Shown here piece by piece: positions 5,241 through 61,466 of a DNA stretch of 64,000 nt. Where the stretch lies: assembly GCA_030390025.1 (NCBI GenBank), contig CM059431.1, positions 121,460,001 through 121,524,000 on the forward strand, given 5' to 3'. A model generated the notes under the pieces. The model did no database searches. It had not been told where the DNA came from and saw only the letters and a list, made by a program, of their open reading frames with translations. Position numbers and translations under genes: made by a program. Origin of the DNA: Squalus acanthias (Eukaryota). Position 1 is the stretch's first letter. Each line of letters begins with the position of its first letter.

Positions 5241-5249
5241 AGCGTTGAA

Positions 5250-26820: not shown

Positions 26821-28015
26821 ATAAGAACATAAGAAACAGGAGCAGGAGTAGGCCAATCAGCCCCTCGAGCCTGCTCCGCCATTCAATAAGATCATGGCTG
26901 ATCCAATCTTGGCCTCAACACCACTTTCCCGCTCTCTCCCCATACCCCTTGACTCCCTTGTAGTTCAAATGTCTGTCAATCTCCGCCTTGAATATATTCA
27001 ATGACTCCACCTCCACAGCTCTCTGGGGAAGAGAATTCCAAAGGTTCACGACCCTCTGAGAGAAGAAATTCCTCCTCATCTCCGTCTTAAATGGGTGACC
27101 CCTTATTCTGAAACTATGCCCCCTAGTTCTAGATATCCCCACTAGGCGTAACATCCTCTCAGCATCCACCCTGTTAATCCCCCTCAGAATCTTATATGTT
27201 TCAATAAGATCACCTCTCATTCTTCTAAACTCCAATGAATATAGGCCCAATCTGCTCAACCTTTCGTCATACGTCAACCCCTTCATCCCAGGAATCAACC
27301 TAGTGAACCTTCTCTGCACTGCCTCCAATGCAAGTATATCCTTCCTTAAATATGGAGACCAAAACTGTATGCAGTACTCCAGGTGCGGTCCCACCAGCAC
27401 CTGTAAAGGTGCATCGAAACTTCCCTACTTTTATACTCCATACCCCTTGCAATAAAGGCCAACATTCCATTAGCCTTCCCAATTATTGCTGTACATGCAT
27501 GTTAACTTTTTGTGTTTCGTGTACAAGGACCCCCAGATCTCTTTGTACCGCAGCATTTTGTAGTCTCACTCCATTTAAATAATAATTTGCTTTTTCATTC
27601 TTCCTTCCAAAGTGGATAACCTCACATTTTCCCACATTATACTCCATCTGCCAAATTTTTGCCCACTCACTGAACCTATCTATATCTCTTTGCAGACTCT
27701 TTGTGTCCTCCTCACAACTTGCTAACCCACCTATCTTTGTATCATCAGCAAATTTGGCTACAGTTAACTTGGTCCCTTCATCCAAGTCTTTAATATAGAT
27801 TGTAAATAGTTGAGGCCCCAGCACTGATCCCTGTGGCACCCCACTAGTTACTGATTCCCAACTGGAAAATGACCCATTTATCCCGACTCTCTGTTTTCTG
27901 TTAGTTAGCCAATCCCCTATCCATGCCAATATATTACCCCCAACCCCGTGCGCTCTTATCTTGTGCAGTAACCTTTTATGTGGCACCTTATCGAATGTCT
28001 TCTGGAAATCCAAAT
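26821..28015 (-). mobile_element. 5'-truncated CR1 LINE (RT C-half plus 3' UTR)
   Basis: ORFs 27483-28019 and 26915-27400: DFQKTFDKVPH, VPQGSVLGP, FADD, HLEYCIQFW, WNSLP; tail (cttatgtt)n. Confidence 0.92.
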
Positions 28016-34160: not shown

Positions 34161-34163
34161 GGC

Positions 34164-35870
34164 TTCCACCATCCAATCAGGCAGTGCATTCCAGATCATA
34201 ACAACATGCTGCGTAAAAAAAATGTTCATCATCTCCACTCTGGCTCTTTTGCCATTACCTTAAATCTGTGTCCTCTGGTTACCGACCCACCCACCAATGG
34301 AAACAGTTTCTCCTTATTTACTCTGTCCAAACCTATTGTAAGTTTGAACAGGTCTATTCAACCTCCCCTTAACCTGAAGGGATAATTACAAGTCCTAGCC
34401 CTTTTCAGGCTACCCCAGATCAGGCGTATTCCCCAGATGTTTACCTTCAACTAAAGTTAGCGGTAGCCGAATTCTGGAGACGCTTAATTGGGTCTAAAGT
34501 TTCAGACTATCTCTCCCTAAAGGAAAGGAATGGCCTGAAGATGTTACTGTCCTCCGGATAGCACTTTTAACAAGTTTAACTAGACTGTAACCTTCCGGAT
34601 ATTATGAGGGTCTGGAAACCCCCCCAGAATTCTGCAACTCCTCACTGAAGAGTGTACAGAAATTGAGTTTGTGAGATTGATACAGAAATACTCTTTGAGA
34701 CAATTTTTAAAATATATAGATTTATTAAAGAACCAACATCTAGTTAAGAGCTGGTATGGCAATCACAACTTTAACCGTTCAAAATTCAAATAGCTTACAT
34801 TTCTTATCAGAGATCCTTATTCTCAAATCTTAACTTCGTTACATTTCCACACTTCTACTTATTTCTTAATCCAGAATATCCACTAAAATCAAATACCTTG
34901 ATTACCTGAGACTCAGAGTTAAAAACTTACAGAGCGTGCCTGTGAAGTTGAGAAAAGCTTGCCCTTCCAGCGACTTCTGACTCTCTATCTGAAAAGCTCT
35001 ATTTTTATACCTTTTTTTAGTGGTATTTTCTTTGAAGTTTCCTGCTGATGTAAACTAATTATCTCTAGTGATACTCTATTGAATTATTTTCTATTCTTAT
35101 TGTCATTTCAGCTGCCAACTTTTAGAATTCTGTCTCTACCTTTAGGTGTTTCAAAAACTATCATAAAATGGTTATTACAGATTTATCTTTTGATGCTATT
35201 CTTAGGAAGTCTTTCTATTGAATTCTTAATATCACTTAACTGCTTGTAAGCCAGACGTCGTGACTCCGTGGTGTTCCAAGTTTAACACATAAACAATGTG
35301 ATTGCTTGGTGTCATCTATTGATATATTTTCAAAGCCTCTCTGTAGGTATATTTTACAATATATAAATCAAAACCACTTCTCTTAGGGTGTTTACTTATT
35401 TTCTTGCTATCTCAATTGGTTGCATATTTAATCGTGTTTCCTGTCTTATTTGATGTTACTTTATGAAGGCATATGGTTGTTTTACTGTTCTGTGCACCTG
35501 TTCGATGTGTTAGATTTTGACACTTTACCTAGGCATTGCTATTGTTTTGTTCCAAACTCCAGACCTGGAAGCGCCAATGGTTTGCTTCAATAGGGGCATT
35601 GTTTCTGTATTTACAAACCAATTCCCATTTCAAAGCTTGTGGTGTTTTATAGCTTTTGTTAACACTTCACCTTATCTCAGAAGCCTGTATTGTATTTGCA
35701 GCCTGTGTCGCCGAGGCTTTCCAGACTTTTAAACCCAGTATGTCTTGTATTAATAATATCAAAATCTGTTCATAGGATGATGTATTTCTTGGAATATGGC
35801 TTATTCCATTACAAACCTTCTCTGCTCTGAGGAGAACAATCCCAGCTTCTCTAGTCTCAACACATAACAT
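34164..35870 (-). mobile_element. CR1 3' fragment split by solo LTR family 2
   Basis: Flanks rejoin as cccttaacc-ttctctgctctgaggagaacaatcccagc, as in the CR1 at 48070. Confidence 0.75.
34375..35813 (-). mobile_element. Solo LTR family 2 (1439 bp, AT-rich)
   Basis: TG...CA ends (TGAAGGGATAA / TTATTCCATTACA), 4-bp TSD AACC, clean interruption of a CR1; minus-strand TATAAAAA at ~35005 and AATAAA at ~34723. Confidence 0.75.
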
Positions 35871-37490: not shown

Positions 37491-39718
37491 CAAACAGGTT
37501 GGACAATTGAAAAAAAAAACTTGTGTATTAAATAAATTAAGGGAAAGGGAAACCTTTCAACTGGAATTTTTGTCAGAGGTACACCTTTTAAAGAGGGAGG
37601 CATGCAACCATTATACTATTTAAAGAGTGCTATGTGAAGATGCTTTCCACTGCTATCTATCAAGGAAGATGTGGCATCACCAGTACCACTGTTGAAGAGG
37701 ATATCTCACTGCCAGTGCCCATTTTAGAGCTGCAATGTCCCCAAGGTTGGCATTAGATTTACTATTGCAGCATGACCCTTTTTACAGATGCCAACGGATG
37801 AATGTTAAGTAGGCCAATTTACAATAGCCATGTTATACCGTGACCTTGCTTCACTTTTCAGAGACAAATTAAAAAAAAGCAGATTTCTAAATGGTTCCGC
37901 TGAACAGAACAGTGCTCACATACTGAACATTACAACAACTCCTGTCAGAATCAATTTTACCTCAACAAAGTTCTCAAGTAAATTTATTTGATTTCCTTGA
38001 ACAGCTAAGAGCTAAGGATGCTGCATGTTATTAAATGGCTTCTTGTATTATGAGGGCCTTCAAGTTCTTGGACTCTGTGCTTCCTTGGACCAAGGGACAA
38101 AAGGCAGAGGTCAAGGGCAAGGGTACAAAAGACATCCACTTTCTCAATCACTTATACAGGGTCTGGAACCCCTCCCCCCCCCCACCCCACCAGCTACTCC
38201 TCCAGCCGGCCAGTGATGTTCTGGAGCCCCCTCCTCCCCCTTCACCGCGTTGGTCCCAGTCCGCAATCGCGATGTTCTGGACACCCCAGTCCTCTGGCCG
38301 GCCCGCGATATTTACAGATCCCACCCCCCCACTTCTCCAGCCGACCCCGCACACCCCTCCTCCTCTGTGCGGTCTAGTACCACAGGCCTACCTGCCCAGG
38401 GCTAGTTAGCCTGTCAATCTGGTTGGCTGCGGATGGGAAACAGAGGCTTCCCATTCAAATCAGGCCCTGCCGTTAAATTCGGCAGGGACTGCGGGAAACC
38501 CGTTCTCCCGGGTTTCCCAACCGCCTCGGAGCCCCCTGCCCCAACCTGCCTTCCCCACTAAAATTCAGCCCGTTGTGTCCATGAACTCCTCTGTATGGTT
38601 GACTCCAAATTAATACACACTGACATAAATCTGGTCCATGCACACAATTCAACTGTAGCAATCCTCAACCCTCTCACTCTTACTGTTAAAATACATGACT
38701 CAAACATAATAAGGCAAGTGTAAACTGTTCCATAATTAATTGGATTTTAGGCTGAAATTTTACCGGCGCTCAGCGGATGGGATGGGTGGCAGGTCAGCTG
38801 TTAAATTAAAAATGATTGACAGCAGGTCGGGAACCCGCTGTCAAAACGCGAACAATGGACTTTCCCAATGTCGGGTCTGCCAGAGCTGTGCAGACCCGAC
38901 AGGCAGTGGCAGGGGAGGCAATTAAAATCATTAGCGGCTTGTTTACAGCCACTTATCAATGCTTTTTTCCCAGCTTTTTAGATTTGACAGGTCGCCCACT
39001 GGTTTCCCGCTGTGCCTAGACCTTGTCTGTGAAGCTGAGGTGGGAGGTCAGTGGCCATTGAATCAGCTGATGAGTTGACAGCTTCAAATGTCAAGTCAAA
39101 GCTCCCAGCTGATTGAGAAATGTTCCCTTAACCACTAGATTCTCTAAACTGCATTTCCACTACAGATTCAGGATGCTGCAAGTCTTTACACAAGTCTCCA
39201 TCCAGTCTGACCTCATTACCTCGCCCACCATTAACAGATCGCTTCTGTCATCTCTACTTCACCTGCCATCTATTCCATCAGCATGGGTGCCCTTGAAACT
39301 CTCTCACCTTGGTCCTCAGAATCCCACCACGATCAGCCCCAGCACCAGCATCACCAGGCACACCAGCAGCATCAACAACAACACAAACCTTCTCCGCAAT
39401 CACCTGATGCTGCACAGGACAGAGGGCATCAGCACCCAACCACAGTGCTGCCTGGGAGGCCAGGGATGGCCTCACCATGGCCACATTTACTTTACTTGAT
39501 GCTGCATGCCCTGGCTGCCACATGATGCGCCAGGTTGGCACCACCCCTCAGCAACAACATAAAGCATCCCTACAATGCCCAAACCATTCCTTTCACACTC
39601 ATCACCATTGCAGGGGGTACCGTTTTACATAGATACATAGAAGATAGGAGCAGGAGTAGGCCATCCGGCCCTTCGAGCCTGCTCCGCCATTTAATGAGAT
39701 CATGGCTGATCCTTCAAT

Positions 39719-42685
39719 TCAGTATCCCGTCCCCGCCTTCTCTCCGTAACCCTTAACCCCTTTTGCCTGTAGAAATATATCTAATTCCCTCTTAAATATA
39801 TTTAATGAGCTGGCGTACACTGCCCTCTGTGGCAATGAGTTCCACAGGTTCACCACTCTCTGAGTGAAGAAATTCCCCCTCATTTCTGTCCTAAATGGTT
39901 TAGCCCTTATCCTTAAATTATGTCCTCTAGTTCTGTTCTCACCCGCCAAGGGAAACATTCCTTCTGCATCTAATCTGTCTAGACCTGTCAGAATTTTATA
40001 CACTTCTATGAGGTCCCCCCTCAATCTTCTAAACTCCAGTGTGTACATCCCTAAACTACATAGTCTCTCCTCATAGGTCAATCCCGCCATTCCTGGTATC
40101 AGCCTGGTGAATCGCCGCTGCACCCCCTCCATGGCAAGAACATCTTTCCTCAGATGAGGCGACCAAAACTGTACACAGTACTCGAGGTGTGGTCTCACCA
40201 GTGCCCTGTACAGCTGCAGCAAGGTATCCCTGTTCCTGTATTCCAACCCTTTTGCTATGAAGGCCAGCATACCGTTTGCCTTCTTGACCGCCTGTTGCAC
40301 CTGCATGCTCGCCTTCAGTGACTGGTGTACAAGAACACCCAGGTCTCTCTGTACTTCCCCCTCTCCCAATTTATTGCCATTTAAATAATAATTTGCCCTC
40401 CCGTTCCTGCACCCAAGGTGGATAACTTCGCACTTGTCCACATTATAGTGCATCTGCCATTTATCCGCCCAATCACCCAGTCTGTCCAAATCGCTCTGGA
40501 GCTTCCTGGTCTCCTCCTCTGAGCCCACCCCCCCTCCTAGTTTAGTGTCGTCTGCAAATTTGGAAATGCTGCATTCGACTCCCTGATCCAGGTCATTAAT
40601 ATAAATTGTGAACAGCTGGGGACCCAGGACAGATCCCTGTGGTACCCCACTTGTTACTGCCTGCCATTCAGAAAATGAGCCGTTTATTCCAACTCTCTGT
40701 TTTCTATCTGACAGCCAGTTCTCTATCCACGTCAATACTTTCCCCTTTATCCCATGAGCTTCAATTTTCCATGCTAATCTTTTATGTGGGACCTTATCGA
40801 AGGCCTTTTGGAAGTCCAGGTACACCACATCTACTGGCTCTCCCCCATCTATTTTACCAGTTACTCCCTCAAAAAATTCCAATAGATTAGTCAAGCACGA
40901 TTTACCCTTTGTAAATGCATGTTGACTCTGTCCTATCCTGTCCCCATTTGCTAAGTGCTCGGCTATTTCATCCTTAATGATGGACTCCAGCATTTTGCCC
41001 ACAACTGATGTAAGGCTTACAGGTCTGTAATTACCTGCTTTTTCCCTACCCCCCTTTTTGAATAGTGGGGTAACGTTAGCTACCCTCCAATCCATGGGCA
41101 CTGTTCCCGAGTCTAATGAATTCTGAAAAATCATGCTTAGTGCATCCGCTATCTCTAGGGCCACCTCCTTCAGTACCCTAGGATGCATGTTATCAGGCCC
41201 TGGGGATTTGTCCGCCTTCAATCCCTTTAGCTTCCTTAACACCATATCCTTAGAGATATTGATTTGCGTCAGTTCCTCCTTTGCCAATGTCCCTATTTTT
41301 CCCGATATCCCAGGGAGGTTTTTTGTGTCTTCCTTCGTAAAGACTGACCCAAAGTATGCATTTAGTTGGTCTGCCATTTCCTTATTTCCCATTATATATT
41401 CCCCCGTATCTGACTGCAATGGACCAACTTTGGTTTTCACCAGTCTTTTCCTCTTGATATACTTATAAAAGCTTTTGGAGTTAGTTTTTATATTTTCCGC
41501 CAGCTTGCTTTCGTAAGCTATTTTGCCCTTCTTGATTAAGCCCTTTGCCCTCCTTTGCTCTATCTTAAACTGTTCCCAATCTTCCGCTCTGGCGCGTTTT
41601 TTGGCTATTTTATACGCCCTATCTTTGGATTTTATGCTGTCTCTAATTTCCCCTGTTATCCACGGTTGAGTCACCTTTTTAGATTTCCTTTTATGCCAGA
41701 TTGGTATAAACAATTTTTGCAATTTTGTCATTCTATCTTTAAATGCTTGCCATTGTTTATCTACCTCCAGTCCTCCCAGGAACGTTGTCCAATCAGACCT
41801 ACTCAGTTCCCGTCTAATGGCATCATAATTCCCCTTGTTTAAATTCAGGACCTGAGTCTCTGAGTCAATTTCTTCGCTCTCCATTTCGAGTGAGAAATCG
41901 ATCATGTTATGATCGCTCTGTCCCAAGGGTCCCCGTACAACAAGATTACTAATTAGTCCCTTCTCATTGCACAGTACCCAGTCCAATATAGCCTGTTCCC
42001 GAGTTGGTTCCTCGACATATTGATCCAGATAACCATCCCTTAAACACTCAAGGAATTCCTCCTCCTCATTATTTTTACTGATTAGGCTAGTCCAATCTAT
42101 ATGTAAGTTAAAGTCACCTATGATGACAGCTGTGCTCTTATTGCACGCTTCTCTAATTTCCCTCGTGATGCCCTCCCCAACCTCTATTTTACTATTTGGA
42201 GGCCTATATACCACTCCTATTAATGTTTTTCGCCCCTCGCTATTTCTTAGCTCCACCCATATAGATTCTGTATTAACTGAGTTAATATCCTTCCTTTCAA
42301 TTGCATTTATCCCCTCTTTTACCAGCAATGCTACCCCTCCTCCCTTTCTTTTTTGTCGATCCTTCCTAAATACTGAATACCCCTGTATGTTAAGCTCCCA
42401 GCCCTGCTCACCCTGCAACCATGTTTCCGTAATCCCAATTAGATCATAATTATTAACCTCTATTTCCACAGCTAATTCATCTACCTTGTTCCTGATGCTT
42501 CTCGCATTAAGGTATAAAACCCTCAGGCTTTTTTTATGCTCACATTTTTTATGAATTAGTTTGGCCCTTTGTTTTTTGTTCCTCTCCTTTTTACCATTTA
42601 TTTCTGTCTGCCTTTCACTTTCCTCTATTTCACTACATGGGTTTCTAGCCCCCTGCCATACTAGTTTAAATGCTCCCGAACTGCT
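39719..42685 (-). CDS. CR1 ORF2: APE endonuclease plus reverse transcriptase (stop-to-stop open frame; the ORF track starts it at GTG 42469)
   Basis: LRVLYLNARSIRNK (upstream of 42469), GITETW, GDFN, SDH; KSPGPD, NYRPVSLTS, YLDFQKAFDKVPH, GVPQGSVLGP, FADD, HLEYCVQFW, WNSLP. Confidence 0.95.
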   Translation of the reverse strand, partial: SSSGAFKLVWQGARNPCSEIEESERQTEINGKKERNKKQRAKLIHKKCEHKKSLRVLYLNARSIRNKVDELAVEIEVNNYDLIGITETWLQGEQGWELNIQGYSVFRKDRQKRKGGGVALLVKEGINAIERKDINSVNTESIWVELRNSEGRKTLIGVVYRPPNSKIEVGEGITREIREACNKSTAVIIGDFNLHIDWTSLISKNNEEEEFLECLRDGYLDQYVEEPTREQAILDWVLCNEKGLISNLVVRGPLGQSDHNMIDFSLEMESEEIDSETQVLNLNKGNYDAIRRELSRSDWTTFLGGLEVDKQWQAFKDRMTKLQKLFIPIWHKRKSKKVTQPWITGEIRDSIKSKDRAYKIAKKRARAEDWEQFKIEQRRAKGLIKKGKIAYESKLAENIKTNSKSFYKYIKRKRLVKTKVGPLQSDTGEYIMGNKEMADQLNAYFGSVFTKEDTKNLPGISGKIGTLAKEELTQINISKDMVLRKLKGLKADKSPGPDNMHPRVLKEVALEIADALSMIFQNSLDSGTVPMDWRVANVTPLFKKGGREKAGNYRPVSLTSVVGKMLESIIKDEIAEHLANGDRIGQSQHAFTKGKSCLTNLLEFFEGVTGKIDGGEPVDVVYLDFQKAFDKVPHKRLAWKIEAHGIKGKVLTWIENWLSDRKQRVGINGSFSEWQAVTSGVPQGSVLGPQLFTIYINDLDQGVECSISKFADDTKLGGGVGSEEETRKLQSDLDRLGDWADKWQMHYNVDKCEVIHLGCRNGRANYYLNGNKLGEGEVQRDLGVLVHQSLKASMQVQQAVKKANGMLAFIAKGLEYRNRDTLLQLYRALVRPHLEYCVQFWSPHLRKDVLAMEGVQRRFTRLIPGMAGLTYEERLCSLGMYTLEFRRLRGDLIEVYKILTGLDRLDAEGMFPLAGENRTRGHNLRIRAKPFRTEMRGNFFTQRVVNLWNSLPQRAVYASSLNIFKRELDIFLQAKGVKGYGEKAGTGY

Positions 42686-43608
42686 TTATCAAAATTTACC
42701 CCGAGAACATCAGTTCCATCTTTGCACAGGTGTAGACCGTCCCTTTTGTATAGGTCACACCTACCACAAAACTGGTCCCAATGCCTCAAAAATTTAAAAC
42801 CCTCCCTCTTACACCACTGCTCAAGCCACGTATTTAGCCTAACTATCCTGTTCTCTGTACTCTTACTAGCACGTGGCACTGGTAGTAATCCAGAGATTAC
42901 TACCTTCGAGGTCCTACTTTTTAGCTTGGCTCCTAACTCCCTAAATTCTACTTGTAGGACCTCTTCCCTTTTTTTAGCTACGTCGTTGGTACCAACATGT
43001 ATCACGACAACTGGCTGTTCCCCCTCCCCCTCCAGAATGTTCTGCACCCGCGCCGAGACATCCTTGACCCTTGCACCAGGGAGGCAAATTACCATCCTGG
43101 AGTCTCGGTCGTGACCACAGAAACTCCTATCTATTCCCCTTACAATCGAATCCCCTATTACTATAGCCCTGCCACTCTTTTTCCCTCCCTTCTTTGCAAC
43201 AGAGCCAGTCATGGTGCCATGAGCCTGGCTGCTGGTGCCTTCCCCCGATGAGTCATCCCCCCCGACAACAGCACCTAAGGCGGTGAACCTGTTGCTGAGG
43301 GAGACAACCCCAGGGGATTCCTGCACTACCTTCCTGCCCTTGCTCTGCCTTTTGGTCACCCATGTACTATCTACTCTGGCCTTAACCTGCGGTGTGACCA
43401 ACTCACTAAATGTGCTATTCACAACCCTCTCAGAATCGTGGATGCTCCAAAGTGAGTCCATCCGCAGCTCAAGGGCCGTCATGCGGTCCCACATGAGCTG
43501 CAGCTGGACACACTTCCCGCACACATGGTTGTCAGGGACACAGGAAGCGTCCATGATTTCCCACATGTTACAGGAGGAGCATGACACAGGTCCGAGCTCT
43601 ACTGCCAT
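42661..43608 (-). CDS. CR1 ORF1: zinc finger, coiled coil and SGNH/GDSL esterase domain (315 aa)
   Basis: CSSC...CGKC, heptad LQLMWDRMTALELRMDSL, blocks IGDSIVR, PGA, HVGTND, DGLHL; Kozak-like gtcATGG. Confidence 0.93.
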   Translation of the reverse strand: MAVELGPVSCSSCNMWEIMDASCVPDNHVCGKCVQLQLMWDRMTALELRMDSLWSIHDSERVVNSTFSELVTPQVKARVDSTWVTKRQSKGRKVVQESPGVVSLSNRFTALGAVVGGDDSSGEGTSSQAHGTMTGSVAKKGGKKSGRAIVIGDSIVRGIDRSFCGHDRDSRMVICLPGARVKDVSARVQNILEGEGEQPVVVIHVGTNDVAKKREEVLQVEFRELGAKLKSRTSKVVISGLLPVPRASKSTENRIVRLNTWLEQWCKREGFKFLRHWDQFCGRCDLYKRDGLHLCKDGTDVLGVNFDKAVREHLN

Positions 43609-44014
43609 GACTTAACCCTTATATTACTTATTAATTTTCTAGTTTTAGTTTATTTATTGACTTTTGTTTTCCCGAAGCTTACTTAGACCAATGTATACTG
43701 TACTCCTCTTATTCCTTTTTAAACTAACCAAATCGCACTAGTTTTAGTTGTACTTTCTAGGAAGGTTTGAGGAAAGTACTTACCAGTTAGTCTTACCTCC
43801 CTGGTCTTTCGCTGACTTCCCGGTCTTGTGTCCCCTTGGTCCTACGCCGACTTCCCGCTCCTCCCGGTTCCTGCTCTGCTGAAAAGAAACTGAGACCAAA
43901 AAATTTGTGACCTCTGTTTTTAGACTGCTAAAAGACTACTAGGTTAGAGGAGGAGGGCGGGTGGGGGTTCCTACTCTGTAGGAACTCGGGTTTAAGCCAC
44001 CACCCTCCTTAAAT

Positions 44015-44411
44015 GCCGCTCCAACCAGGTCCGCTCCTCCTTCCCCGCTGCCGACCGCTCTGTGGGAGAAAAAGAAAGAAAGGCTCCTCCTCCGCCGCTG
44101 TCGACGCTGGTCTGAGGCCTACCTGAGCCTCGGGGCTCCCTTTATCGACTCGCCGCCGCTCCCGCCGCTCCAACCAGGTCCGCTCCTCCTTCCCCGCTGC
44201 CGACCGCTCTGTGGGAGAAAAAGAAAGAAAGGCTCCTCCTCCGCCGCTGTCGACGCTGGTCTGAGGCCTACCTGAGCCTCGGGGCTCCCTTTATCGACTC
44301 GCCGCCGCTCCCGCCGCTCCAACCAGGTCCGCTCCTCCTTCCCCGCTGCCGACCGCTCTGTGGGAGAAAAAGAAAGAAAGGCTCCTCCTCCGCCGCTGTC
44401 GACGCTGGTCT
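44015..44411 (-). repeat. 149-bp GC/CpG-rich tandem monomers (~2.7 units) at the CR1 5' end
   Basis: Units start at 44015, 44164, 44313 and look identical by eye. Confidence 0.92.
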
Positions 44412-46969: not shown

Positions 46970-48600
46970 GAAGTGTTCATTTAACAGCACAATTCAGTTC
47001 AAGATTCCATCTGCTTAAACATAGATGTCATTCATTGTGGATGGTCAGTGTATAAACTGGATGCAGCTTGCAACTTGCACTTCTCCTTAACTTACCCTTG
47101 TATCACACATTGCAGCACTTAGACCTTTATGGATGATGAAATAGCCATAATATAGATTGAAGCTGAAGGCTACAACAGTTAACTGTTTACCCAAAGGTTT
47201 CCAAACTGGCTAAAAAGGCTACTGTAGTGTTACTGCCAAATAGCCAAAGTTATGATGCAAATAGTTTCTAGTTGTATTCTAAATAAATGGTTGATTTCAA
47301 TCCTTCCATTGACAGGATTTAATGCTGCATTGCTATAAAAGGGCAGGACGATGAAAACTGATATTACTGCAGTACAATTGCAACTAACTGAATTGAATTA
47401 GATCATTGCTGCAAACAGTACAACTCCAATGTAGTTACATCATCAACCTCTTTATGTATGTCATAATATAATGAAACTACAGGATCTGGAAACCCATCAA
47501 AATGTCCCAAATTTAGGCTTGTCTAGCAGGGGACTCATGTCTGGGTCCGAGATCTAATGCCTAATGTGAACTTTCACCTTTGACCATTTCCTTAGCTTAG
47601 TAGAGAGCTAATACTGGCTCTTCAGTATTAATTGTGACTAACTGATTATTTATGGTCACCGGTGAGAGGTGAGACTTGATCCTTCCAAAACCTGCATTAC
47701 AAATGTATAAAACGGGCAACCGATCCTTTGCTGTTCATTAGCTGCCCAGCGGGAACTGTTATATTTAACCACATTCATTCGTACTTTCCTGCATGTGGTC
47801 CTATCCAGTGGTCAGAACAGGAAAACTGGCTGACATTCTCTGTCAATAGCCAAGTGGTATTGAGCATTCTGCCTTCTGCCACACCTTTCAGTTATCTCAG
47901 CACAGTTATCAAATCTTCTGTATAACTCACTGTTGCACCAGGCAAGGCCTTTAACCACTAATGCGGAAGATTGAGTGGTAGTTTCTAACATTACAACGGA
48001 AATAATTGGATTGATTCTAACTGTATTACACCCCGCCCGACTTTCCATTCCCATTATCATAGAATAATAGAATCATAGAATGGTTACAGCACAGAAGGAG
48101 GTCATTCAGCCCATCGAGCCCGTGCTGGCTCTCTGCAAGAGCACTTCAGCTCGTCCCACTCTCTCGCCCTTTCCCCGTAGCCCTGCTAATTTATTTCCTT
48201 CAGGTACTTATCCAGTTCCCTTTTGAAAGCCATGATTGAATCTGCCTCCACCACCCTTTCAGGCAGTGCATTCCAGATCCTAACCACTCAGTGTGTAAAC
48301 AAGTTTTTCCTCATGTCGCCTTTGGTTCTTTTGCTAATCACCTTAAATCTGTGTCCTCTGGTTCTCGACCCTTCCACTAATGGGAACAGTTCTCTCTATC
48401 TACTCTGTCTAGACCCTGTATAATTTTGAACACCTCTATCAAATCTTCTCTCAACCTTCACTTCTCCAAGGAGAACAACCTCAGCTTCTGTAGTCTATCC
48501 ACATAACTGAAGTCCCTCATCCCTGGAATCATTTTCGTAAATCTTTTCTGCACCCTCTCTAAGGCCTTCACATCCTTCCTAATGTGCGGTGCCCAGAATT

Positions 48601-49431
48601 GGGGGAATTTTCCCAGCCCTGAGGAGGCGGGTTTGGAGGCGGAACAAGGGAAAATGGCAGAAACTGGGAGCGGGTACTGACCCCGCTCCCAACCCGCCTC
48701 CGTGCCATCTTCCCGGGAAGCGGGTCCCCGAGTCGAGCAGGGACCCGTCTCCTCGAGGCGGGAAGGGGATTACAGCCAATTAACTGCCTGTTAACAGGCA
48801 GCTAAGAGGCTTATCCCCATTTAGCCACCGCAAGTGCGGGCTTCCCGACGGCTGCGAACCTCGCCAGGGTCAGCGAGGCGAGCAGTGGGTCTGCGGGGGT
48901 GAGAGGGGTCGAAAAGTCCACTGTGGAGGTGAGTGATGGGTGCAAGTGTGGAGAGGTAAGCATGAGAGGTGAGTTTAAAGTGTTAGAAAATGTATACTTA
49001 CCTTTGCTTCTTCCTGCAGGCTTCAACCCTTGGGGATCCGGAGGTGCCTCATCTCAACAGCAGAGATGACAGAATGGCTGCTGCATTCTCCGATGCAACA
49101 GCCATCTGATTTCTGCTGAGGAAAGAGGTTTTGGTGTGTCTTTGTGCAAGGACTCACCATAGAACAGAGATTGTCAGTGTTTGACAGCTTCTCTAAGTTG
49201 TCAAAAGCTGACAATTTATCTGACAAAAAATTTTGACAGATGAAACCTCATACGCTGACGTCCTCTGTCACCGGCTTTCCCTTAATTGGCCGGCTAAGCC
49301 CGCAGGGTGGGCATAACAAGGTCAATCAAGGGAAAAGAGCATGGGTTGGCCGGACGTCATTGAGGGTGGAACTGAAACCCAACAACCATCAGTCCCGCCC
49401 CCTACGCGCCCCCATTGATAAAATCCAGCCC
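48601..49431 (-). mobile_element. MITE family A copy 5
   Basis: Reverse complement of 366-1204; ends aaaatccagccc; TSD imperfect (ATT/ATG). Confidence 0.82.
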
Positions 49432-49509
49432 ATGGACACAATACTTCAGTTGAGGCCGAACCAATGTTTTATAAAGTTTCATCATAACTTCCTTGCTTTT
49501 GTACTATAT

Positions 49510-50208
49510 GGGCAGAATTTTCTTTGACCCGTGGAAGTGGGTTTGGAGGCATGTGGGGGGTTAAAATTGCGAAAACTGGTGGGCGGACACAAGCCCGCCT
49601 CCATTCCGTCTCCATGCAATTTTCATTAAATCGTGTCTGCTGGTCCCGACTCCGTCCCGCCTCTAAGAGGTGGGATAGGCTGTTAAGGCCCTTAACAAGC
49701 ACTAAATTGCCTTTATAATGCCATTTTGAAAGGCCTTTGTGATTTTAACCCTTTTTCTACGTGAAGCACGCCTGTTCTGAACCACAAATGTGAAACCTGG
49801 CGGGAGCACATTTTGATAGCTGACTATCAGCTGCAGGTCCACTATTACAACGGAGATGATGTAGTAGTAGGAGTAGGAGTAGTAGTAAGAATATTATCTG
49901 GGAGTTGTGGTGGTACAAAAATATCTGGGAGCAGACTTAGGGCTGCTGCTGCTCATTTTGCCTCCAGGTCCTCTCACAGCAAAGGCCAGGCAGTCTTTGC
50001 AGACCTTCAATGCAGCAGCAATGATGACATCATCAGAGGCGACTTTCAGACTGAAAACACTAATTGGGTCATGGGTTCCCACATGCTGGAACTCAATTGC
50101 CCAATTAGGTGAAAATCGCATCAATCTCCCACATCCAATTACAGTTGGGTGGATAACACGAAAAGTGGATGACACGACTCAGCCCGCCCCAGTATCAAAA
50201 TCCAGCCC
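49510..50208 (-). mobile_element. MITE family D copy 2
   Basis: TIR GGGCAGAATTTT / AAAATCCAGCCC, TSD TAT; reverse complement of 21297-21989. Confidence 0.85.
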
Positions 50209-51220
50209 TATGCCTCTATTTATAAAGCCCAGGATCCCGTATGCTTTTTTAATCACTTTCTCAACCTGCCCTGCCACCTTCAATGATTTGTGCACATATA
50301 CCCCCAGGTCTCTCTGTTCATGCACCCTCTTTAGGATTGTACCCTTAAGTTTATATTGCCTCTCCTCGTTCTTCCTACCAAATTGTATCACTTCGCACTT
50401 TTCTGCGTTAAATTTCTTCTGCCACGTGTCCGCCCATTTCACCAGCCTGTCTATGTCTTCTTGAAGTCTATCACTCTCCTCCTCACTGTTCACTATACTT
50501 CCAAGTTTTGTGTCAGCTGCAAATTTTGAAATTGTGCCCTGTACACCCAAGTCCAAGTCATTATTATATATCAAGAAAGTGGTCCTGGTACCGATCCCTG
50601 GGGAACCCCACTGTGTACCTTCCTCCAAAAAACAACCGTTCACCACTATTCTCTGTTTCCTGTCACTTAGCCAATTTCGTATCCATGCTGCCACACTGTC
50701 CCTTTTATTCCATGAGCTTCAACTTTGCTGGCAAGCCTATTATGTGGCATTTTATCAAACGCCTTTTGTAAGTCCATGTACACCATGTCAACCACAATGC
50801 CCTCATCAACCCTAACTGTTACCTCATCAAAAAACTCGATCAAGTTAGTTGGACATGATTTGCCTTTAACAAGTCCGTGCTGGCTTCCCTTAATTAATCC
50901 ACACTTATCCAAGTGATTGTTAATTTTGTCCCTGATTATCGTTTCAAAAGTTTCCCCACTACCGAAGTTAAACTTACTGGCTTGTATTTGCTGGGTTTAT
51001 CCTTACACCCTTTTTTGAACAAGTGTGTAACATTTGCAATTCTCCAGTCCTCTGGCACCGCTCCTATACTAAGGTGTGTTGCAAGATTATGGCCAGTTCC
51101 TCTGCAATTTCCACCTTAACCTCCCTCAGCATCCTAGGATGCATCCCTCATGACTTATTTACTTTAAGTACAGCCAGCCTTTCTAGTACCTCTTCCTGAT
51201 CAATTTTTATCCGTTCCAGT

Positions 51221-54101: not shown

Positions 54102-55409
54102 ATTATCTCCAGTACCTCCTCTTTCACTGTGACTTTGGCAGCATTTTCTTCCTTGGTGAAGACAGATGCAAAGTATTCATTTAGTACCTCAGCCATGCCC
54201 TCTCCCTCCATGCGTAGGTTTCCTTTTTGGTCCCTAATCAACCCCACCCCTCCTCTTACTACCCATTTACTATTTATATGCTGATAGAAGACTTTTGAAT
54301 TCCCTTCAATTTGATTTCAATTGAAAGGAAAATCGGGCTGGGTGCAACACAGGCGAGCGACCCACTGGTGCCTGTCTCTCGCCTGGTGGGCAAAGTTAAA
54401 ATCAACCCCAAATTTACAGTCCGGTGACTTGAAATTACCTGCAGCATGCAAGGCATAATCTCCCCGACATTATGCTGTAATCATAGTTACATTGGCAGAA
54501 GAGCGGGCTAGAGGCAAATGCAAATGAGGTAATGAATTCTGCTCACCTGCAGTAACTTCTTGTCGCACCATTGCACAGAATTACCAGCAGTTTGCTGCAA
54601 TAAGATTCCTTTTGTAATGATGATACAAATCACGATAATTAAATTTGTCAATAATTTGTTGTAATTACGTGAGAAAAGGCCAAGTGCATCGTTGCAGATT
54701 CAAGGTTATTCCGAGTACCCAATCAGCCATAGTTTAGAAACCTGAAAACTACACGCAATATTTATTTTATTTGTATCCCGAGACTTCCATTTACTTAGAA
54801 TAGCAAAATAGGACTGAGAGAGCCAGGACCAAAAATTATATTGGTTCTGCTCCTTAATGTTGAAACTTACACTGATGGTAAAATGAGTTAATTTTCAGTG
54901 GGCCTCATCCTCAATGCAGCCTTTCATTTATTATGAACCTAAATGGAAAATGTCGATTCTCTATTGGCAGCTGACACTTACCCATCTAAGACTAGCTTCT
55001 TGCTAATATTGATTTATGCGATATAATGACAATAATTTTCTCCCATGACTGTTTCTTGTCCAGTCATGATTGCCACTTTGGTCCAAATGCACAATAATTC
55101 ATTAAACTCATTATAAACCAAACACATAATAAGCCAAATAATTTGGAGGATTTTAATGCATGTGGTTATTTGCAATTTGCTGACAAACATCTATAATATT
55201 TTATTCAACTTGACAGTACAGTTTTCAGGGCATCTCATGTGAAGAATGTGAAAACAAGATTCGCGTATACGGATGCATTTTTCATAGTTCTTGGTTCTTT
55301 ACTGTTATTAATTTAAAGCATTTTACAACTACAATAAAAGGTTAGAACTAGCTACTACCAGTCCTGTATTTTACAAGCAGTATCATGTTTTGTGTTTTGA
55401 TAAAATTTG

Positions 55410-56104
55410 GGCCTATAAATTTGGCCAGGCTGCACCCATATTTTGGGCACTAACCAGCCTACTATGCCCCCAATATGGCGGCTACGAAACACATGAACAT
55501 TTCCTGCTGGAAGTGTGCTGCTCACCATATTGATGAAGAAAGAAAAATGGGCATCCAGGGACCACACATGGAACAGGCATTAGGCCCTTGGCACATGCAA
55601 ATTAGGGGCCACCTCCTGTTTGAGGCCTCCTTTATAAGAATGGTTTGCCCTGAGGCAGCCGGTGACGTCACTGGTTGGACTCGGTAAAATTGGGATCGCC
55701 TGCTATCAAAAAGGTATGTTTTTTAAAATTGACTTTCCTGAACTTGGAGCTGGGTGGAGCAGGAGTGCTCCTCCTGATCCCACATTTAAAGAATGTGGGC
55801 TTCCACTCCCCCCACACCAATCACTGCTGCTCCACATCTCCCCCACCCGATCGCTGCCACCCCCCCCCCCACCCCCTGACCTCTAACCTCCCGACCCCCA
55901 GCTTCTCTTACCTGCGGGCCGCTGAGACCTGATCTTGGGTTGCTCTTTACCAGTTGGCTGTTTGCAACACTTCAGCTCAATTGAAATGTGGCCCGAGGCC
56001 CAATACCAAGGGCACCTTGTGACTCACCATTCAGGCGCAGGGAATGTACCCTGCACCTCCCCCCACATCCTCCCAAGCCCTGGGCAGGCCCGAATTTCTA
56101 TACC
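55410..56104. mobile_element. Degenerate Harbinger-type MITE
   Basis: Ends GGCCTATAAATT / AATTTCTATACC, imperfect TSD TTG/ATG; internal tgacgtca. Confidence 0.5.
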
Positions 56105-56264
56105 ATGAGGCTTACTCCTATCAGACAGTAGCATTTGCTAAATTACTTGGAAAAGAATCTAAGAAATGGAGTCAGTAAATAAAAGCCATTGAAAACAAGG
56201 AATGATATTGAATGGGAAAGTTACACCAATTAACAAGCATGAGTAAAGAAATATACAGACAATA

Positions 56265-56860
56265 ATAGGAATATAGGAATAGAAGTAGGCCACTCATCAC
56301 CTCCAGATTTATACTGCCCTCTGTGTGAAGAACTGCTTCCTGATTTCACGTCTGAATGGCCTAGCTCTAATTTTAAGATTATGGTCCCTTGTTCTGGATT
56401 CCCCCACCAGAAGCAATAGTTTCTCTGTTTCTACCCTATCAAATCCTTTTATCATTTTAAACACCTCGGTTAGATCACCCTTCAATCTTCTATACTTAAT
56501 GAAATACAAGCCAGGTTTATGTAACTTGTCCTCATGATTTAGCCCTTTAAGTCTCTATATCATTCTGGTGAATCTGCACTGTACCCCCTCCAAAGCCAAT
56601 ATATTCTTCCTAAGTCCCAGTGCCCACCACTGAACGCAATACTCCAGATGGGGTCTGACCAAGGCTTTGTACAACTGAAGCATGACTTCCTCCCCTTTGT
56701 ATCCCAGCCTCCTTGAAATAAAGGCCAACATTCCATTAGCCTTTTTGATTGCTTTTTTTACCTGTCCACTAGCTTTTAGTGATTTGTGTACATGGACACG
56801 CAAATCTCTTTGCTCCACCACAGTTCCTCGTTTCTCACCATTTAGAAAATAAATTGATCC
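56265..56860 (-). mobile_element. CR1 3' fragment
   Basis: KKANGMLAFI, LVRPHLEYCVQWW, RRLKGDLTEVFK, SRTRDHNL. Confidence 0.85.
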
Positions 56861-58435: not shown

Positions 58436-59832
58436 TGTTCCGAGAGCAACTGTGTTAATGGTCAGTGCAATATGTATTTATATTTAAAAAGCCCCTTCCT
58501 CCAAGCTTTAATGGAATGTAGGACATAGTCAAAATAACCTAAATAATAATAGACCAGCTTGATTCCTATGACAATATTTTGCATTCTATTAAAGCCTAGA
58601 GAAAGACTCATTTTGAACATAAACACAAATTACATATTGTAACAAATGGTTACATCATCAGCCTCAAAACACATCACTCACTGACAGAAAAATGTTTGAT
58701 AAGTGCACATGAAATTGGGTTCAAAATTTGTATCATATGGTTCAAAAACACAGCTTTCTTGCTGCATTTTCAGTTAGAACTTAATCAGCATAGGCACAAA
58801 AGCTTCTACCTCATTCGTCTGAATGTCAGCTTATTTTTGCCTGGTGACGTACGATTTGAATTGCATTGACTTGACATTGGATTTATTTTACTGCTTATTA
58901 CAAGGATATAACATTCTGTATAAATGAATGGACTCATTAAAATGGTTGTACTTAATACGTTTGTTTTAGACTAGCATGCGCATAAGTGGCAGTCAAAAAC
59001 TATATTCTAATAAGAATATACGCATGCCTCGGTAATGCAGTTGACAATTGACACATTTTACTCCCAACTGCAGCAGCAAGCCTCAAATGGGAGGATGTTC
59101 AGGGCTATAAACCCATCACTATCTGGCTTGTTGGGAGATACTGCCATCTGTGCTGTTGTATTATTTTCAGTGAACTTACTGAGGCATATGTAATCCCTCA
59201 TTGGAGTATAGTTTGACACTTGAAATTTTCTATTAATGCCCACAGATTTAATGTGTGACATGCCCTATGCAAGATTTTTATTAAATTATAATAGATAAAT
59301 AGGTAGATAATCCTGAGACCAAGGCTAAATCTATTTTGAATGCTCACTGTTATATCCTTACACTTGTTTGTGCTCAACACAGCTTTGCAGCAGAGCTGTT
59401 TCTCTGTATGCAATACATATTCTGCATCATTATCTTGGAACACACTGTGGCATCTGGGGAATGTGAAAGTGAACAAAGTTAGAATTTAGACAATTTTTTT
59501 TTGCCAGATTTAATATTTAGAGATAAGAGCATTGAAACTGGGCCATGTAGCACTCATTTTTCAGATGTTAAATGGCCATCTAAGGCCCCGAAATGGCTGG
59601 CAGAAAGTGCGCAGCCTGCCATTTTGGTAGAAGAGGTAACGCTCGCGTAGGAAGCACATGCCGGCTGGATTTAAAACACAAAAAAACAATTATGCAGGTG
59701 AGGGTCCTGCTCGGTGTGCAGGACCTGTTCATCATTTTGGACCGCATCAGCGATCCGGCCACCTCGTGCTGACCTCGCTCAGCGCCACATGACACATGAA
59801 GGTCCCTCATCAGTGATATTTAAAGGGATCAT

Positions 59833-61466
59833 TATCACTAGAGAAAAAGTACTAGGCAAACTTATGGGACTAAAGGTGGACAAGTCCCCTGGACCTGATG
59901 GCCTGCATCCTAGGGTTTTAAATGAAGTGGCTGCAGAGATACTGGATGCGTTGGTTGTAAACTATCAAAATTCCCTGGATTCTGGAGAGGTCCCAGTGGA
60001 TTGGAAAACTGCAAATGTAACTCCCCTATTCAAGAAAGGAGGGAGACAGAAAGCAGGAAACGATAGGTCAGTTAGCCTAACATCTGTCATTGGGAAAATG
60101 CTGGAATCCATTATTAAGGAAGTAATAGTGGGACATTTAGAAAATCATAATACAGTCAAGCAGAGTCAACATGGTTTTATGAAAGGGAAATCATGTTTGA
60201 CAAATTTACTAGAGTGCTTTGAGGATGTAATGAGCAGGGTGGATAAAGGGGAACTAGTAGATGTAGTGTATTTGGATTTCCAGAAGGCATTCGATAAGGT
60301 GCCGCATAAAAGGTTACTGCACAAGATAAGAGCTCATGGTGTTAGAGGTAATATATTAAATTGGATAGAGGATTGGCTAACAGAAAACAGAGAGTCAGAA
60401 TAAATGGGTCATTTTCAGGTTGGCAAACTGTAACTATTGGGGTGCCACAGGGATCAGTGCTGTGATCTCAACTATTTACCATCTATATTAATGAATTGGA
60501 TGAAGGGACCATGTGTACTGTAGCCAAATTTGCTGACGATACAAAGATAGGTGGGAAAGCAAGTTGTGAGGAGTACACAAAACGTCTGCAAAGGGATATA
60601 GATAGGTTAAGTGAGTGGGCAAAAATTTGGCAGATGGAGTATAATGTGATAAAATGTGAGGTTATCCACTTTGGTAGGAAGAATAAAAAGGCAAAATATT
60701 ATTTAAATGGAGAGAGACTACAGAATGCTGCGGTACAGAGGGATCTGGGTGTCCTCGTACATGAAATACAAAAAGTTAGCATGCAGGTACAGCAAGTAAT
60801 TAGGAAGGCAAATGGAATATTGGCCTTTATTGCAAGGGGGATGGAATATAAAAGTAGGGAAGTCTTGTTACAACTGTACAAGGTGTTGGTGAGACCACAC
60901 CTGGAGTACTGCATACAGTTTTGGTCTCCTCATTTAAGGAAGGATATACTTGCATTGGAGGCAGTCAGAGAAGCTTCACTAGGTTGATTCCTGGGATGAA
61001 GGGGTTGTCTTATGAGGAAAGGTTGAGCAGGTTGGGCCTATACTCATTGGAGTTTAGAAGAATGAGAGGGGATCTTATTGAAACATATAAGATTCTGAGG
61101 GGGCCTAACAGGGTAGATGCAGGGAGGATGTTTCCCCTCATGGGGAAATCTAGAACTAGGGGGCATAGTTTCAGGATAAGGGGTCGCCCATTTAAAACGG
61201 AGATGAGGAGGAATTTCTTCTCTCAGAGGGTTGTGAATCTTTGGAATTCTCTACCCCAGAGAGCTGTGGAGGCTGGGTCATTGAATATATTCAAGGCGGA
61301 GATAGACAGATATTTGAAAAACAGGGGACTCAAGGGTTATGGGGATCGGGCAAGAAAGTGGAGTTGAGGGCAACATCTGATCAGCCATGATCATATTGAA
61401 TGGCGGAGCAGGCTCGAGGGGCCAACTGGCCTACTCCTGCTCCTATTTCATATGTTCTTATGTTCT
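59833..61466 (+). mobile_element. 5'-truncated CR1 LINE with 5-bp TSD ATCAT
   Basis: RT motifs across ORFs 59714, 60496, 60921; tail (tatgttct)n; ATCAT at 59828-59832 and 61467-61471. Confidence 0.93.

What the first reader, a model, noticed from the sequence alone, without database searches (positions are those of the whole stretch)
42630..42690. Candidate -1 programmed ribosomal frameshift joining CR1 ORF1 to an AUG-less ORF2
Seen: on the minus strand ORF1 ends CAU UUA AAC UAG, so a U_UUA_AAC heptamer (42670-42664) lies in the correct X_XXY_YYZ phase directly before the stop. The -1 frame (UUU AAA CUA GUA UGG CAG...) is ORF2, open from 42685 to 39719. That frame holds the first endonuclease motif (LRVLYLNARS) but no in-frame AUG until SDHN-M, after the whole endonuclease domain. 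Six nt downstream lies a G-rich segment (ggcagggggctagaaacccatgt) that could form a modest stem. Established: UUUAAAC is the coronavirus-type slippery site, whereas human L1 and SART1 make ORF2 by termination-reinitiation. Inference: this LINE makes a ~1300-aa Gag-Pol-like ORF1-ORF2 fusion. I cannot check whether this has been shown for CR1.
Basis: partly seen in the sequence, partly recalled or inferred. Interest (0 to 1): 0.8.

Follow-up and report, generated by a model that had tools for sequence, protein, structure and literature searches.

The report
Conserved frameshift site in CR1 LINEs
An intact CR1-type jumping gene ends its first gene with a seven-letter slippery sequence and a stop that distant relatives also keep, while its second gene lies one base back with no usable start codon, so the copying enzyme is likely made by ribosomes slipping back one base, as in retroviruses.

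Summary
Observation confirmed. The minus strand holds an intact CR1 LINE: ORF1 (315 aa, SGNH esterase) ends U_UUA_AAC then UAG. ORF2 (endonuclease, RT) is open in the -1 frame, and its first AUG (codon 261) lies past the endonuclease. In loci retrieved with mid-ORF1 peptides, 23 of 27 junctions carry a canonical X_XXY_YYZ heptamer (21 U_UUA_AAC), against 12 of 3,699 background positions and 2 of 53 internal xLN sites. All 10 loci with a long intact ORF2 have it in the -1 frame with a stop-free linker; 5 have no AUG before the endonuclease. Published CR1 consensuses from sharks, rays, chimaera, bowfin, coelacanth, frog, lizard and crocodilians show the motif. Best reading: -1 programmed frameshifting giving a predicted 1,296-aa ORF1-ORF2 fusion (about 0.78), untested. 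Against it: 5 loci in the bird-like clade have an in-frame AUG just after the stop. Ten literature searches found no CR1 report, but the key 1997-2005 papers were not read. This scan noted the same idea before on other DNA (e1-8041403, e1-9568866).

The parts
39626..44407 (-). Whole CR1-type LINE copy (about 4.8 kb), both ORFs uninterrupted
   Evidence: The 5' edge is inferred from loose ends at 44408 that match the 3' flank.
44015..44411 (-). 5' UTR tandem array, 149-bp unit, 2.7 copies, 100% matches
42661..43608 (-). ORF1, 315 aa: N-terminal CxxC...CxxC motif and C-terminal SGNH esterase; ends H-L-N-stop
   Evidence: A profile of ORF1 relatives hits PDB 4c1b (ORF1-encoded protein) at E 1.8e-43.
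42715..43158 (-). SGNH/GDSL esterase domain (PF13472, aa 151-298); GDS, GTND and DGLH motifs present
42664..42670 (-). Slippery heptamer U_UUA_AAC, the last codons of ORF1; predicted -1 shift site
   Evidence: conservation
42661..42663 (-). ORF1 stop UAG directly 3' of the heptamer (read as CUA, Leu, after a -1 shift)
   Evidence: A stop follows directly in 22 of 27 junctions.
42649..42655 (-). CAGGGGG motif; G-run at +11 to +15 after the heptamer; candidate stimulator of unknown kind
   Evidence: G in 20-23 of 25-26 junctions at each of these five positions; 18 of 19 Gly codons at this position are GGG
42631..42660 (-).
39719..42685 (-). ORF2 frame (-1 to ORF1), 988 aa stop to stop; overlaps ORF1 by 22 nt before the stop; 981 aa follow the predicted shift
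41909..42508 (-). APE-type endonuclease domain (PF03372, aa 60-259 of the frame), wholly upstream of the first in-frame AUG
40418..41050 (-). Reverse transcriptase domain (PF00078, aa 546-756), with FADD motif
39626..39718 (-). Short 3' UTR ending in two copies of an 8-bp unit (39626-39641), no poly(A)

Best explanation
This intact CR1 LINE likely makes its ORF2 protein by -1 programmed ribosomal frameshifting at the U_UUA_AAC that ends ORF1, which would give a predicted 1,296-aa ORF1-ORF2 fusion beside free ORF1p. Shown here: the heptamer in the right phase, the adjacent stop, ORF2 in the -1 frame, no in-frame AUG before the end of the endonuclease, and conservation of the arrangement in distant CR1-type lineages at synonymous positions. 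Inferred: ribosomes with Leu-tRNA (UUA) and Asn-tRNA (AAC) slip one base back to UUU AAA and read CUA next, giving ...H-L-N then L-V-W-Q-G...; most ribosomes stop at UAG, so ORF1p would be in excess as Gag is over Gag-Pol. More weakly inferred: in vertebrate elements the stimulator is not a local stem but the adjacent stop plus the G-run at +11 to +15, possibly protein-bound; the L032/L039/L052 lineage has a conventional hairpin 8-10 nt downstream.
For: (1) The loci were retrieved with peptide patterns from the middle of ORF1, so retrieval was blind to the junction (66 loci; 26 CR1-type loci reach the ORF1 end, plus the window = 27). U_UUA_AAC in 21 of 27, canonical X_XXY_YYZ in 23 of 27, one more G_UUA_AAC. 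Among the 19 junctions placed mechanically by the first ORF1-frame stop, 15 are U_UUA_AAC. (2) Controls: canonical heptamers at 12 of 3,699 upstream ORF1 codon positions; T-TTA-AAC at 2 of 53 internal xLN tripeptides; pooled ORF1 usage TTA 0.16 of Leu and AAC 0.46 of Asn. (3) The junctions fall in at least six deep ORF1 lineages (tree); 5 of 6 have U_UUA_AAC and the sixth G_UUA_AAC. By hand, with 2/53 per lineage, p is about 5e-7 even if L-N were fixed at protein level. (4) Variants stay slippery: U_UUU_UUA in intact L032, U_UUA_AAU in L007, G_UUA_AAC in intact L002; GUU is a tolerated XXX in equine arteritis virus (PMC3542737). (5) 10 of 10 loci with 250 or more open codons after the endonuclease motif have it in the -1 frame with a stop-free linker of 104-257 nt; the 0 frame is open in 2 of 10 and the +1 frame in 0 of 10. 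(6) The -1 frame is closed by a stop 10-22 nt upstream in 13 of 27 junctions, so entry is confined to the heptamer region. (7) No in-frame AUG before the endonuclease in 5 of those 10: window, L004, L006, L032, L039. (8) Protein ends: 57 of 114 ORF1 representatives end in LN. The residue before LN is E/K/Q/M/W (no T-ending codon) in 1 of 105 held proteins, against 17% nearby. All 9 GN-enders end QGN, which fits G_GGA_AAC (DNA not seen). (9) Published CR1 consensuses show TTTAAAC plus stop at the junction in 18 of 23 motif hits, across cartilaginous fishes, bowfin, coelacanth, frog, lizard and crocodilians (PMC13343379 Supplementary Table 2; judged by eye, motif-selected, no denominator). (10) A hairpin starts 8-10 nt downstream in L032 (z -4.05), L039 (z -0.79) and L052 (z -1.43). 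(11) U_UUA_AAC is listed among the most shifty heptamers for mammalian ribosomes (PMC5009743).
Against: No translation product, reporter or ribosome profile was examined. The window and most vertebrate-type loci lack a stimulatory structure: of 25 downstream segments folded, only L032 had z below -2, and no homologous long-range partner of the G-run was found in 11 loci; standard -1 signals need a structure 5-9 nt downstream (PMC3542737). Five loci in the bird-like clade (L003, L009, L011, L012, L019) have an in-frame ATG 2 nt after the stop, and GTG/TTG stands at that codon in L006, L010, L013, L016 and L052, which fits reinitiation. 4 of 27 junctions are not canonical (L002, and L012, L013, L050, which are visibly decayed copies). 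Eight of the 27 junctions were placed by hand, L060 partly by the motif itself. The 105 LN-ending proteins are not independent of each other. L1 and SART1 use reinitiation-type mechanisms (PMC2881922; PMC3708506), and PMC3708506 argues that ORF1 functions need to be made separately from ORF2p.
Confidence: 0.78

Rival explanations
1. Termination-reinitiation, as in L1 and SART1: ribosomes stop at UAG and restart in the -1 frame a few bases downstream, at AUG where present or at a non-AUG codon. The heptamer and G-run would then be a termination or tethering context, and ORF2p a separate protein.
For: Known for L1 and SART1 (PMC2881922; PMC3708506). In-frame ATG 2 nt after the stop in 5 loci of the bird-like clade, GTG/TTG in 5 other loci. 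Stop directly after the heptamer in 22 of 27. No structured stimulator in vertebrate-type loci. That L1 ORF2 tolerates loss of its AUG is recalled, not read here.
Against: The window has TGG at that codon; others have TCG, GCA, GCG or CCG. Its nearest ATG is out of frame and opens a 4-codon ORF. Reinitiation does not explain why the ORF1 end is always a tRNA re-pairing heptamer, nor why variants remain slippery. A TURBS-like TGGGA within 90 nt upstream occurs in only 6 of 27, at scattered positions, and not in the window.
Confidence: 0.14
2. The nucleotides are fixed by protein constraint or dual coding: ORF1p needs a C-terminal Leu-Asn and ORF2p an N-terminal F-K-L, with ORF2 started inside the short overlap by internal or non-AUG initiation.
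For: L314 and N315 are invariant in the 29-sequence alignment. Annotated natural in-frame fused copies read GFKL at the junction (P0112, P0032).
Against: The overlap is only 10-22 nt in 13 of 27 junctions, and in the window it has no AUG or near-cognate codon. Teleost L2-type esterase ORF1s lack the LN end, and the match to the solved esterase ends before it. Internal xLN sites use T-TTA-AAC in 2 of 53.
Confidence: 0.04
3. ORF2 is made from a spliced or subgenomic RNA, or by transcriptional slippage that adds one base near the junction.
For: Not excluded by any stranded RNA data; a G-run of 5-7 bases lies near the junction.
Against: Splicing would not require the -1 frame to be open right up to the heptamer (10 of 10). 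The G-run lies after the ORF1 stop, so slippage there cannot join the ORFs, and the heptamer has no run longer than three.
Confidence: 0.04

Closest known systems
Canonical vertebrate CR1 LINEs with esterase ORF1 (e.g. consensus ScyCan_CR1-1a, PriPec_CR1-7, AllMis_CR1-6a in PMC13343379 Supplementary Table 2)
   Same: Esterase ORF1, APE-RT ORF2, octamer-type tail. The published consensuses show the same heptamer, stop and G-run at the same spacing.
   Different: That paper's main text has no occurrence of 'frameshift', 'slippery', 'overlap' or 'translat': the sequence is in print, the mechanism is not discussed there.
Retroviral gag-pol/pro-pol and coronavirus ORF1a/1b -1 frameshift signals
   Same: X_XXY_YYZ heptamer at the end of a structural ORF giving access to a polymerase in the -1 frame; U_UUA_AAC is the IBV site (PMC5009743; PMC3542737).
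   Different: No pseudoknot-like or stable stem 5-9 nt downstream in the window or most relatives (pseudoknots were not modelled); the host is a non-LTR element and ORF2 shows no protease match.
Dictyostelium TRE5-A / TRE3-A non-LTR retrotransposons
   Same: APE-type LINEs said in a review figure legend to require a -1 frameshift for ORF2 (PMC5911963).
   Different: A different clade and host; ORF2 there carries a zinc finger. I saw only the review's statement, not the primary evidence or the shift site.
Human L1 and silkworm SART1 ORF2 translation
   Same: Bicistronic LINE mRNA in which ORF2 output depends on ORF1 translation (PMC2881922).
   Different: They reinitiate and give a separate ORF2p (SART1 at UAAUG; PMC3708506). 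Here no in-frame AUG is available and a fusion is predicted.
PRRSV nsp2 protein-stimulated frameshift (C-rich motif bound by nsp1beta/PCBP)
   Same: A short unstructured conserved motif 10 nt downstream of the shift site replaces an RNA structure (PMC7618472); the G-run here also begins after a 10-nt spacer.
   Different: The motif is G-rich, not C-rich; no binding protein is known or tested; the analogy rests on spacing alone.

Membership tests
CR1 LINE (canonical vertebrate CR1) | ORF2 with APE endonuclease then RT | tested here: met
   PF03372 aa 60-259, PF14529, PF00078 aa 546-756
CR1 LINE (canonical vertebrate CR1) | [quoted passage not shown] | tested here: met
   PF13472 E 2.5e-11; CxxC...CxxC in the alignment; 4c1b hit; definition from PMC13343379 section 15 and PMC4316615
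CR1 LINE (canonical vertebrate CR1) | 3' UTR ending in an octamer microsatellite, no poly(A) | tested here: met
   Two copies of an 8-bp unit at 39626-39641; definition from PMC4316615. The 3' hairpin was not folded.
CR1 LINE (canonical vertebrate CR1) | RT phylogeny places it in CR1 rather than L2 | tested here: inconclusive
   No RT tree with named references was built. The ORF1 esterase tree groups it with cartilaginous-fish proteins (98/98), apart from teleost L2-type ORF1s; by eye the junction region closely resembles consensus ScyCan_CR1-1a.
-1 programmed ribosomal frameshift signal | X_XXY_YYZ heptamer in zero-frame phase inside the ORF overlap | tested here: met
-1 programmed ribosomal frameshift signal | Downstream ORF open in the -1 frame from the heptamer, without its own start | tested here: met
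-1 programmed ribosomal frameshift signal | Evolutionary conservation of site and phase beyond protein constraint | tested here: met
   23 of 27 against 12 of 3,699 and 2 of 53; six lineages
-1 programmed ribosomal frameshift signal | Stimulatory stem-loop or pseudoknot 5-9 nt downstream | tested here: inconclusive
   No significant stem in the window (z -0.25 to -1.03) and no conserved long-range partner; pseudoknots not modelled; hairpin present in L032 (z -4.05). So this is not filed as a classical structure-stimulated signal.
-1 programmed ribosomal frameshift signal | Trans-frame product demonstrated | not testable with these tools
   Needs a reporter, proteomics or ribosome profiling
Termination-reinitiation signal (SART1/calicivirus type) | In-frame AUG overlapping or close to the ORF1 stop | tested here: not met
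   First in-frame AUG is codon 261 in the window; met in 5 loci of the bird-like clade out of 27 junctions
Termination-reinitiation signal (SART1/calicivirus type) | TURBS motif UGGGA 40-90 nt upstream of the stop | tested here: not met
   Absent in the window; 6 of 27 at scattered positions; definition from PMC3542737

The most novel reading that the evidence does not exclude
CR1, the dominant LINE of most vertebrates, has used a retrovirus-like -1 frameshift since before sharks and tetrapods split, and in vertebrates the shift is driven by a new kind of stimulator: an adjacent stop codon plus an unstructured G-run 10 nt downstream, bound by a protein (host factor or the element's own ORF1p). 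Other lineages swapped in a hairpin or another heptamer (U_UUU_UUA, G_UUA_AAC, probably G_GGA_AAC). The esterase ORF1p would be covalently fused to the endonuclease-RT, giving Gag/Gag-Pol-like stoichiometry in a non-LTR element.
Probability: 0.3. Interest if true: 0.88.

Novelty: new variant of a known kind. Interest (0 to 1): 0.72.

Why it matters
How bicistronic LINEs translate ORF2 is described as unclear outside L1 and SART1 (PMC3708506). CR1-group elements are the dominant retrotransposons in most vertebrate species (PMC13343379 abstract, seen in the search listing). A conserved 7-nt site gives a one-construct test of the question. If true, ORF2p of CR1 is an ORF1-ORF2 fusion, which changes how CR1 ORF2 is annotated (no initiating Met should be sought), what an intact or active copy looks like, how the esterase could bring the RT into the particle, and it adds a frameshift signal that seems to work without a local RNA structure.

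Tried and rejected
No whole genome is held for this window, so copies of this family could not be counted. The window has only one ORF1 copy. Scans of viral contigs and genome contigs gave no usable junction: L001 and L068 show only weak esterase matches and no ORF2 or junction, and L069 ends before the ORF1 stop. So DNA for the QGN-ending group was not obtained. A long-range partner for the G-run was not found at homologous positions in 11 loci. A G-quadruplex was considered and set aside by inspection: the window and the L004 group have a single G-run. The internal heptamer at 42697 was rejected because family contigs in four runs read another base at 42695; the one at 42802 was rejected because the -1 frame has stops between it and ORF2. 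None of 13 joints in four runs had GT-AG ends on the coding strand, but these are contigs and the RNA status is a guess, so this is not evidence against splicing. Rfam gave nothing above gathering score. A search for longer proteins found 12 hits, none a full ORF1-EN-RT fusion by its Pfam list; only P0112 joins esterase and endonuclease. Three loci that reach the ORF1 end but look L2-type or unrelated (L024, L048, L059) lack the motif and were left out of the 27; 37 of the 66 loci do not reach the ORF1 end. Five short rows (L042, L048, L049, L053, L060) were left out of the tree. Host taxa of the non-vertebrate-like loci were not established: Atlas hints were Arthropoda for L039 (0.93) and mixed Cnidaria/Chordata for the L004 group. 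Literature searches found no paper proposing frameshifting for CR1; PMC11835228 appeared in three listings and was not opened.
Full report
Observation. The minus strand carries a two-ORF LINE. ORF1 (43608-42661, 315 aa) ends CAT TTA AAC TAG, placing TTTAAAC at 42670-42664 in X_XXY_YYZ phase. The -1 frame is open from 42685 to 39719 (988 aa) and encodes an APE endonuclease (aa 60-259) and RT (aa 546-756); ORF1 encodes an SGNH esterase. The first in-frame Met is codon 261; the nine ATGs between 42700 and 42300 are all out of frame and open ORFs of 1-13 codons. One heptamer alone proves little: the window has 18 TTTAAAC and ORF1 has two more phase-correct heptamers.

What the element is. It spans about 44407-39626, with a 149-bp tandem array in the 5' UTR and an 8-bp repeat tail. 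The closest named ORF1 relatives are from cartilaginous fishes (69% identity to a Pristiophorus protein), and the esterase tree groups it with them. Esterase ORF1, APE-RT ORF2 and octamer tail match the published description of CR1 (PMC13343379; PMC4316615). No RT tree with named references was built. The family is present in public runs of several coded organisms. In one search, contigs spanning the junction in three runs have 4, 2 and 2 differences, matched in number by listed changes outside 42661-42670, so the heptamer and stop appear unchanged (the table of differences was cut, so this rests on matching counts). The same contig sets carry a change at 42639 that weakens the proposed stem and one at 42695 that removes the internal heptamer at 42697.

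Conservation test. 26 CR1-type loci reach the ORF1 end; with the window that is 27 junctions. Three L2-type or unrelated loci reach the end without the motif and 37 do not reach it. Nineteen junctions were placed mechanically by the first ORF1-frame stop and 8 by hand (the L052 offset was corrected). Result: U_UUA_AAC in 21 of 27 (15 of the 19 mechanical), canonical X_XXY_YYZ in 23 of 27, one G_UUA_AAC, and three non-slippery variants in visibly decayed copies. Controls: canonical heptamers at 12 of 3,699 upstream ORF1 codon positions, and T-TTA-AAC at 2 of 53 internal xLN sites. The loci fall into at least six deep ORF1 lineages: the window's; a main clade with bird proteins; the L043/L047 sister clade; the L004 group; L002; and L032/L039/L052. 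Treating lineages as independent at synonymous sites, 5 of 6 at 2/53 each is about 5e-7 (hand calculation).

Frame and start codons. All 10 loci with 250 or more open codons after the endonuclease motif have it in the -1 frame with a stop-free linker of 104-257 nt, while the 0 frame is open in 2 and the +1 frame in none. With the looser rule that also admits short contig ends the count is 12 of 15; the three failures are L012, L027 and L042. The -1 frame is closed 10-22 nt upstream of the ORF1 stop in 13 of 27. Five of the 10 have no in-frame ATG before the endonuclease. Against my reading, L003, L009, L011, L012 and L019 have an in-frame ATG 2 nt after the stop, and five other loci have GTG or TTG there; reinitiation may operate, alone or additionally, in the bird-like clade.

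Protein-end evidence. Of 150 representatives at 50% identity, 114 reach the ORF1 end; 57 end in LN and 9 in GN. The residue before LN is one without a T-ending codon in 1 of 105 held proteins, against 17% nearby, as expected if the codon must end in T; these proteins are related, so the nominal p overstates the case. All 9 GN-enders end QGN, compatible with G_GGA_AAC, but I obtained no DNA for them. Two annotated stingray proteins in which ORF1 runs into the -1 frame read GFKL at the junction and continue into the endonuclease (P0112, P0032).

Independent named sequences. In Supplementary Table 2 of PMC13343379 (only the first 400 characters of each consensus are held), 23 hits to TTTAAAC plus a stop were listed; by eye 18 lie at an ORF1/ORF2 junction, in families named for catshark, dogfish, stingray, sawfish, chimaera, bowfin, coelacanth, bullfrog, bearded dragon, alligator, crocodile and one labelled Crack (species read from the name prefixes). 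Two hits are in CR1 5' UTRs and three in L2 or Rex1 rows. This search was selected for the motif and has no denominator; it shows breadth, not frequency.

Stimulator. A stop follows the heptamer directly in 22 of 27. G dominates positions +11 to +15 (20-23 of 25-26), and 18 of 19 Gly codons at that position are GGG, which suggests constraint on the RNA rather than the peptide. No conserved local fold or long-range partner was found for it. The L032/L039/L052 lineage instead has a hairpin starting 8-10 nt downstream, significant only in L032 (z -4.05). In print, a stop 3 nt after a shift site is required in pea enation mosaic virus (PMC5009743), and an unstructured motif 10 nt downstream works through bound protein in PRRSV (PMC7618472); both are analogies only.

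Mechanism. Most likely (0.78): tandem slippage on U_UUA_AAC, continuing at CUA, giving a 315 + 981 = 1,296-aa fusion. Shown: site, phase, open frame, absence of AUG, conservation. Inferred: the slip, the fusion, its efficiency and its stimulator. Rivals: reinitiation (0.14), protein or dual-coding constraint (0.04), splicing or transcriptional slippage (0.04).

Comparison and novelty. It would work like retroviral and coronaviral -1 frameshifting, but a classical downstream structure was not found, so it is not filed as a standard structure-stimulated signal. A -1 frameshift is stated for Dictyostelium TRE5-A and TRE3-A (PMC5911963), and a frameshift within HeT-A gag (PMC5009743), so the mechanism is not new to non-LTR elements. 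Ten searches of the open-access library found no paper proposing it for CR1. I could not read Kapitonov and Jurka 2003 or Kojima 2005, and did not see Haas 1997 or Kajikawa 1997; I recall that the turtle CR1 paper described overlapping ORFs and it may have suggested frameshifting. Two earlier AI notes of this scan reached the same idea; they are not counted as support.

What I saw of each paper: passages only for PMC2881922, PMC5009743 (first 300,000 characters held), PMC4255032, PMC5911963, PMC5006619, PMC3708506, PMC3905857, PMC4316615, PMC7618472; passages and part 1 of section 12 for PMC3542737; passages, section 15 and supplement searches for PMC13343379; search listing only for PMC11835228. 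Supplement cells were cut at 400 characters, and supplements of the other papers were not opened; these may bear on both breadth and priority.

Verdict: real, conserved, well supported computationally, untested experimentally. New variant of a known kind; interest 0.72.

Noticed in passing
window 44015-44411: The 5' UTR holds 2.7 perfectly identical copies of a 149-bp unit, suggesting a young copy and an array-type promoter region.
   Followed up: no
window 44408 and 39625 (element ends): Loose ends at 44408 in two runs match the 3' flank, so the element sits inside another high-copy repeat, with no clear target-site duplication.
   Followed up: partly
P0196, P0201, P0202, P0206, P0208, P0214, P0216, P0243, P0266: A group of esterase ORF1s ends in Q-G-N, compatible with a different slippery heptamer (G_GGA_AAC); others end or nearly end in KN or FF, compatible with A_AAA_AAC or U-rich sites. 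DNA not obtained.
   Followed up: partly
L032:1487-1517, L039:1636-1660, L052:1521-1557: A distant CR1-type lineage has a GC-rich hairpin 8-10 nt after the heptamer, with differing arm sequences in the three loci; its 3' arm contains the AGGGG motif that vertebrate elements carry unpaired.
   Followed up: partly
P0013: An ORF1 protein 56% identical to the window's is filed under Pseudomonas aeruginosa as an SGNH/GDSL hydrolase; probably host DNA contaminating a bacterial assembly.
   Followed up: no
P0112, P0049, P0127, P0292-P0296, P0299: CR1 ORF1 sequence is absorbed into host gene models under unrelated names (hydroxyacid oxidase 2, TMEM204, sarcosine dehydrogenase, mesothelin), mostly likely annotation artefacts.
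   Followed up: no
window 1194-6650, 26927-28013, 34161-34375, 48165-51219, 54146-56851, 59828-61352: Many decayed CR1-type ORF2 fragments on both strands, none with an ORF1 match.
   Followed up: no
PMC13343379 Supplementary Table 2, row AldAff_Crack-2: A consensus labelled Crack begins with sequence that by eye looks like a CR1 esterase ORF1 end with the same heptamer and stop; it may be mislabelled or chimeric.
   Followed up: no
L069: A contig in a bacterial MAG carries an esterase ORF1-like frame, possibly host LINE contamination; it ends before the stop.
   Followed up: no
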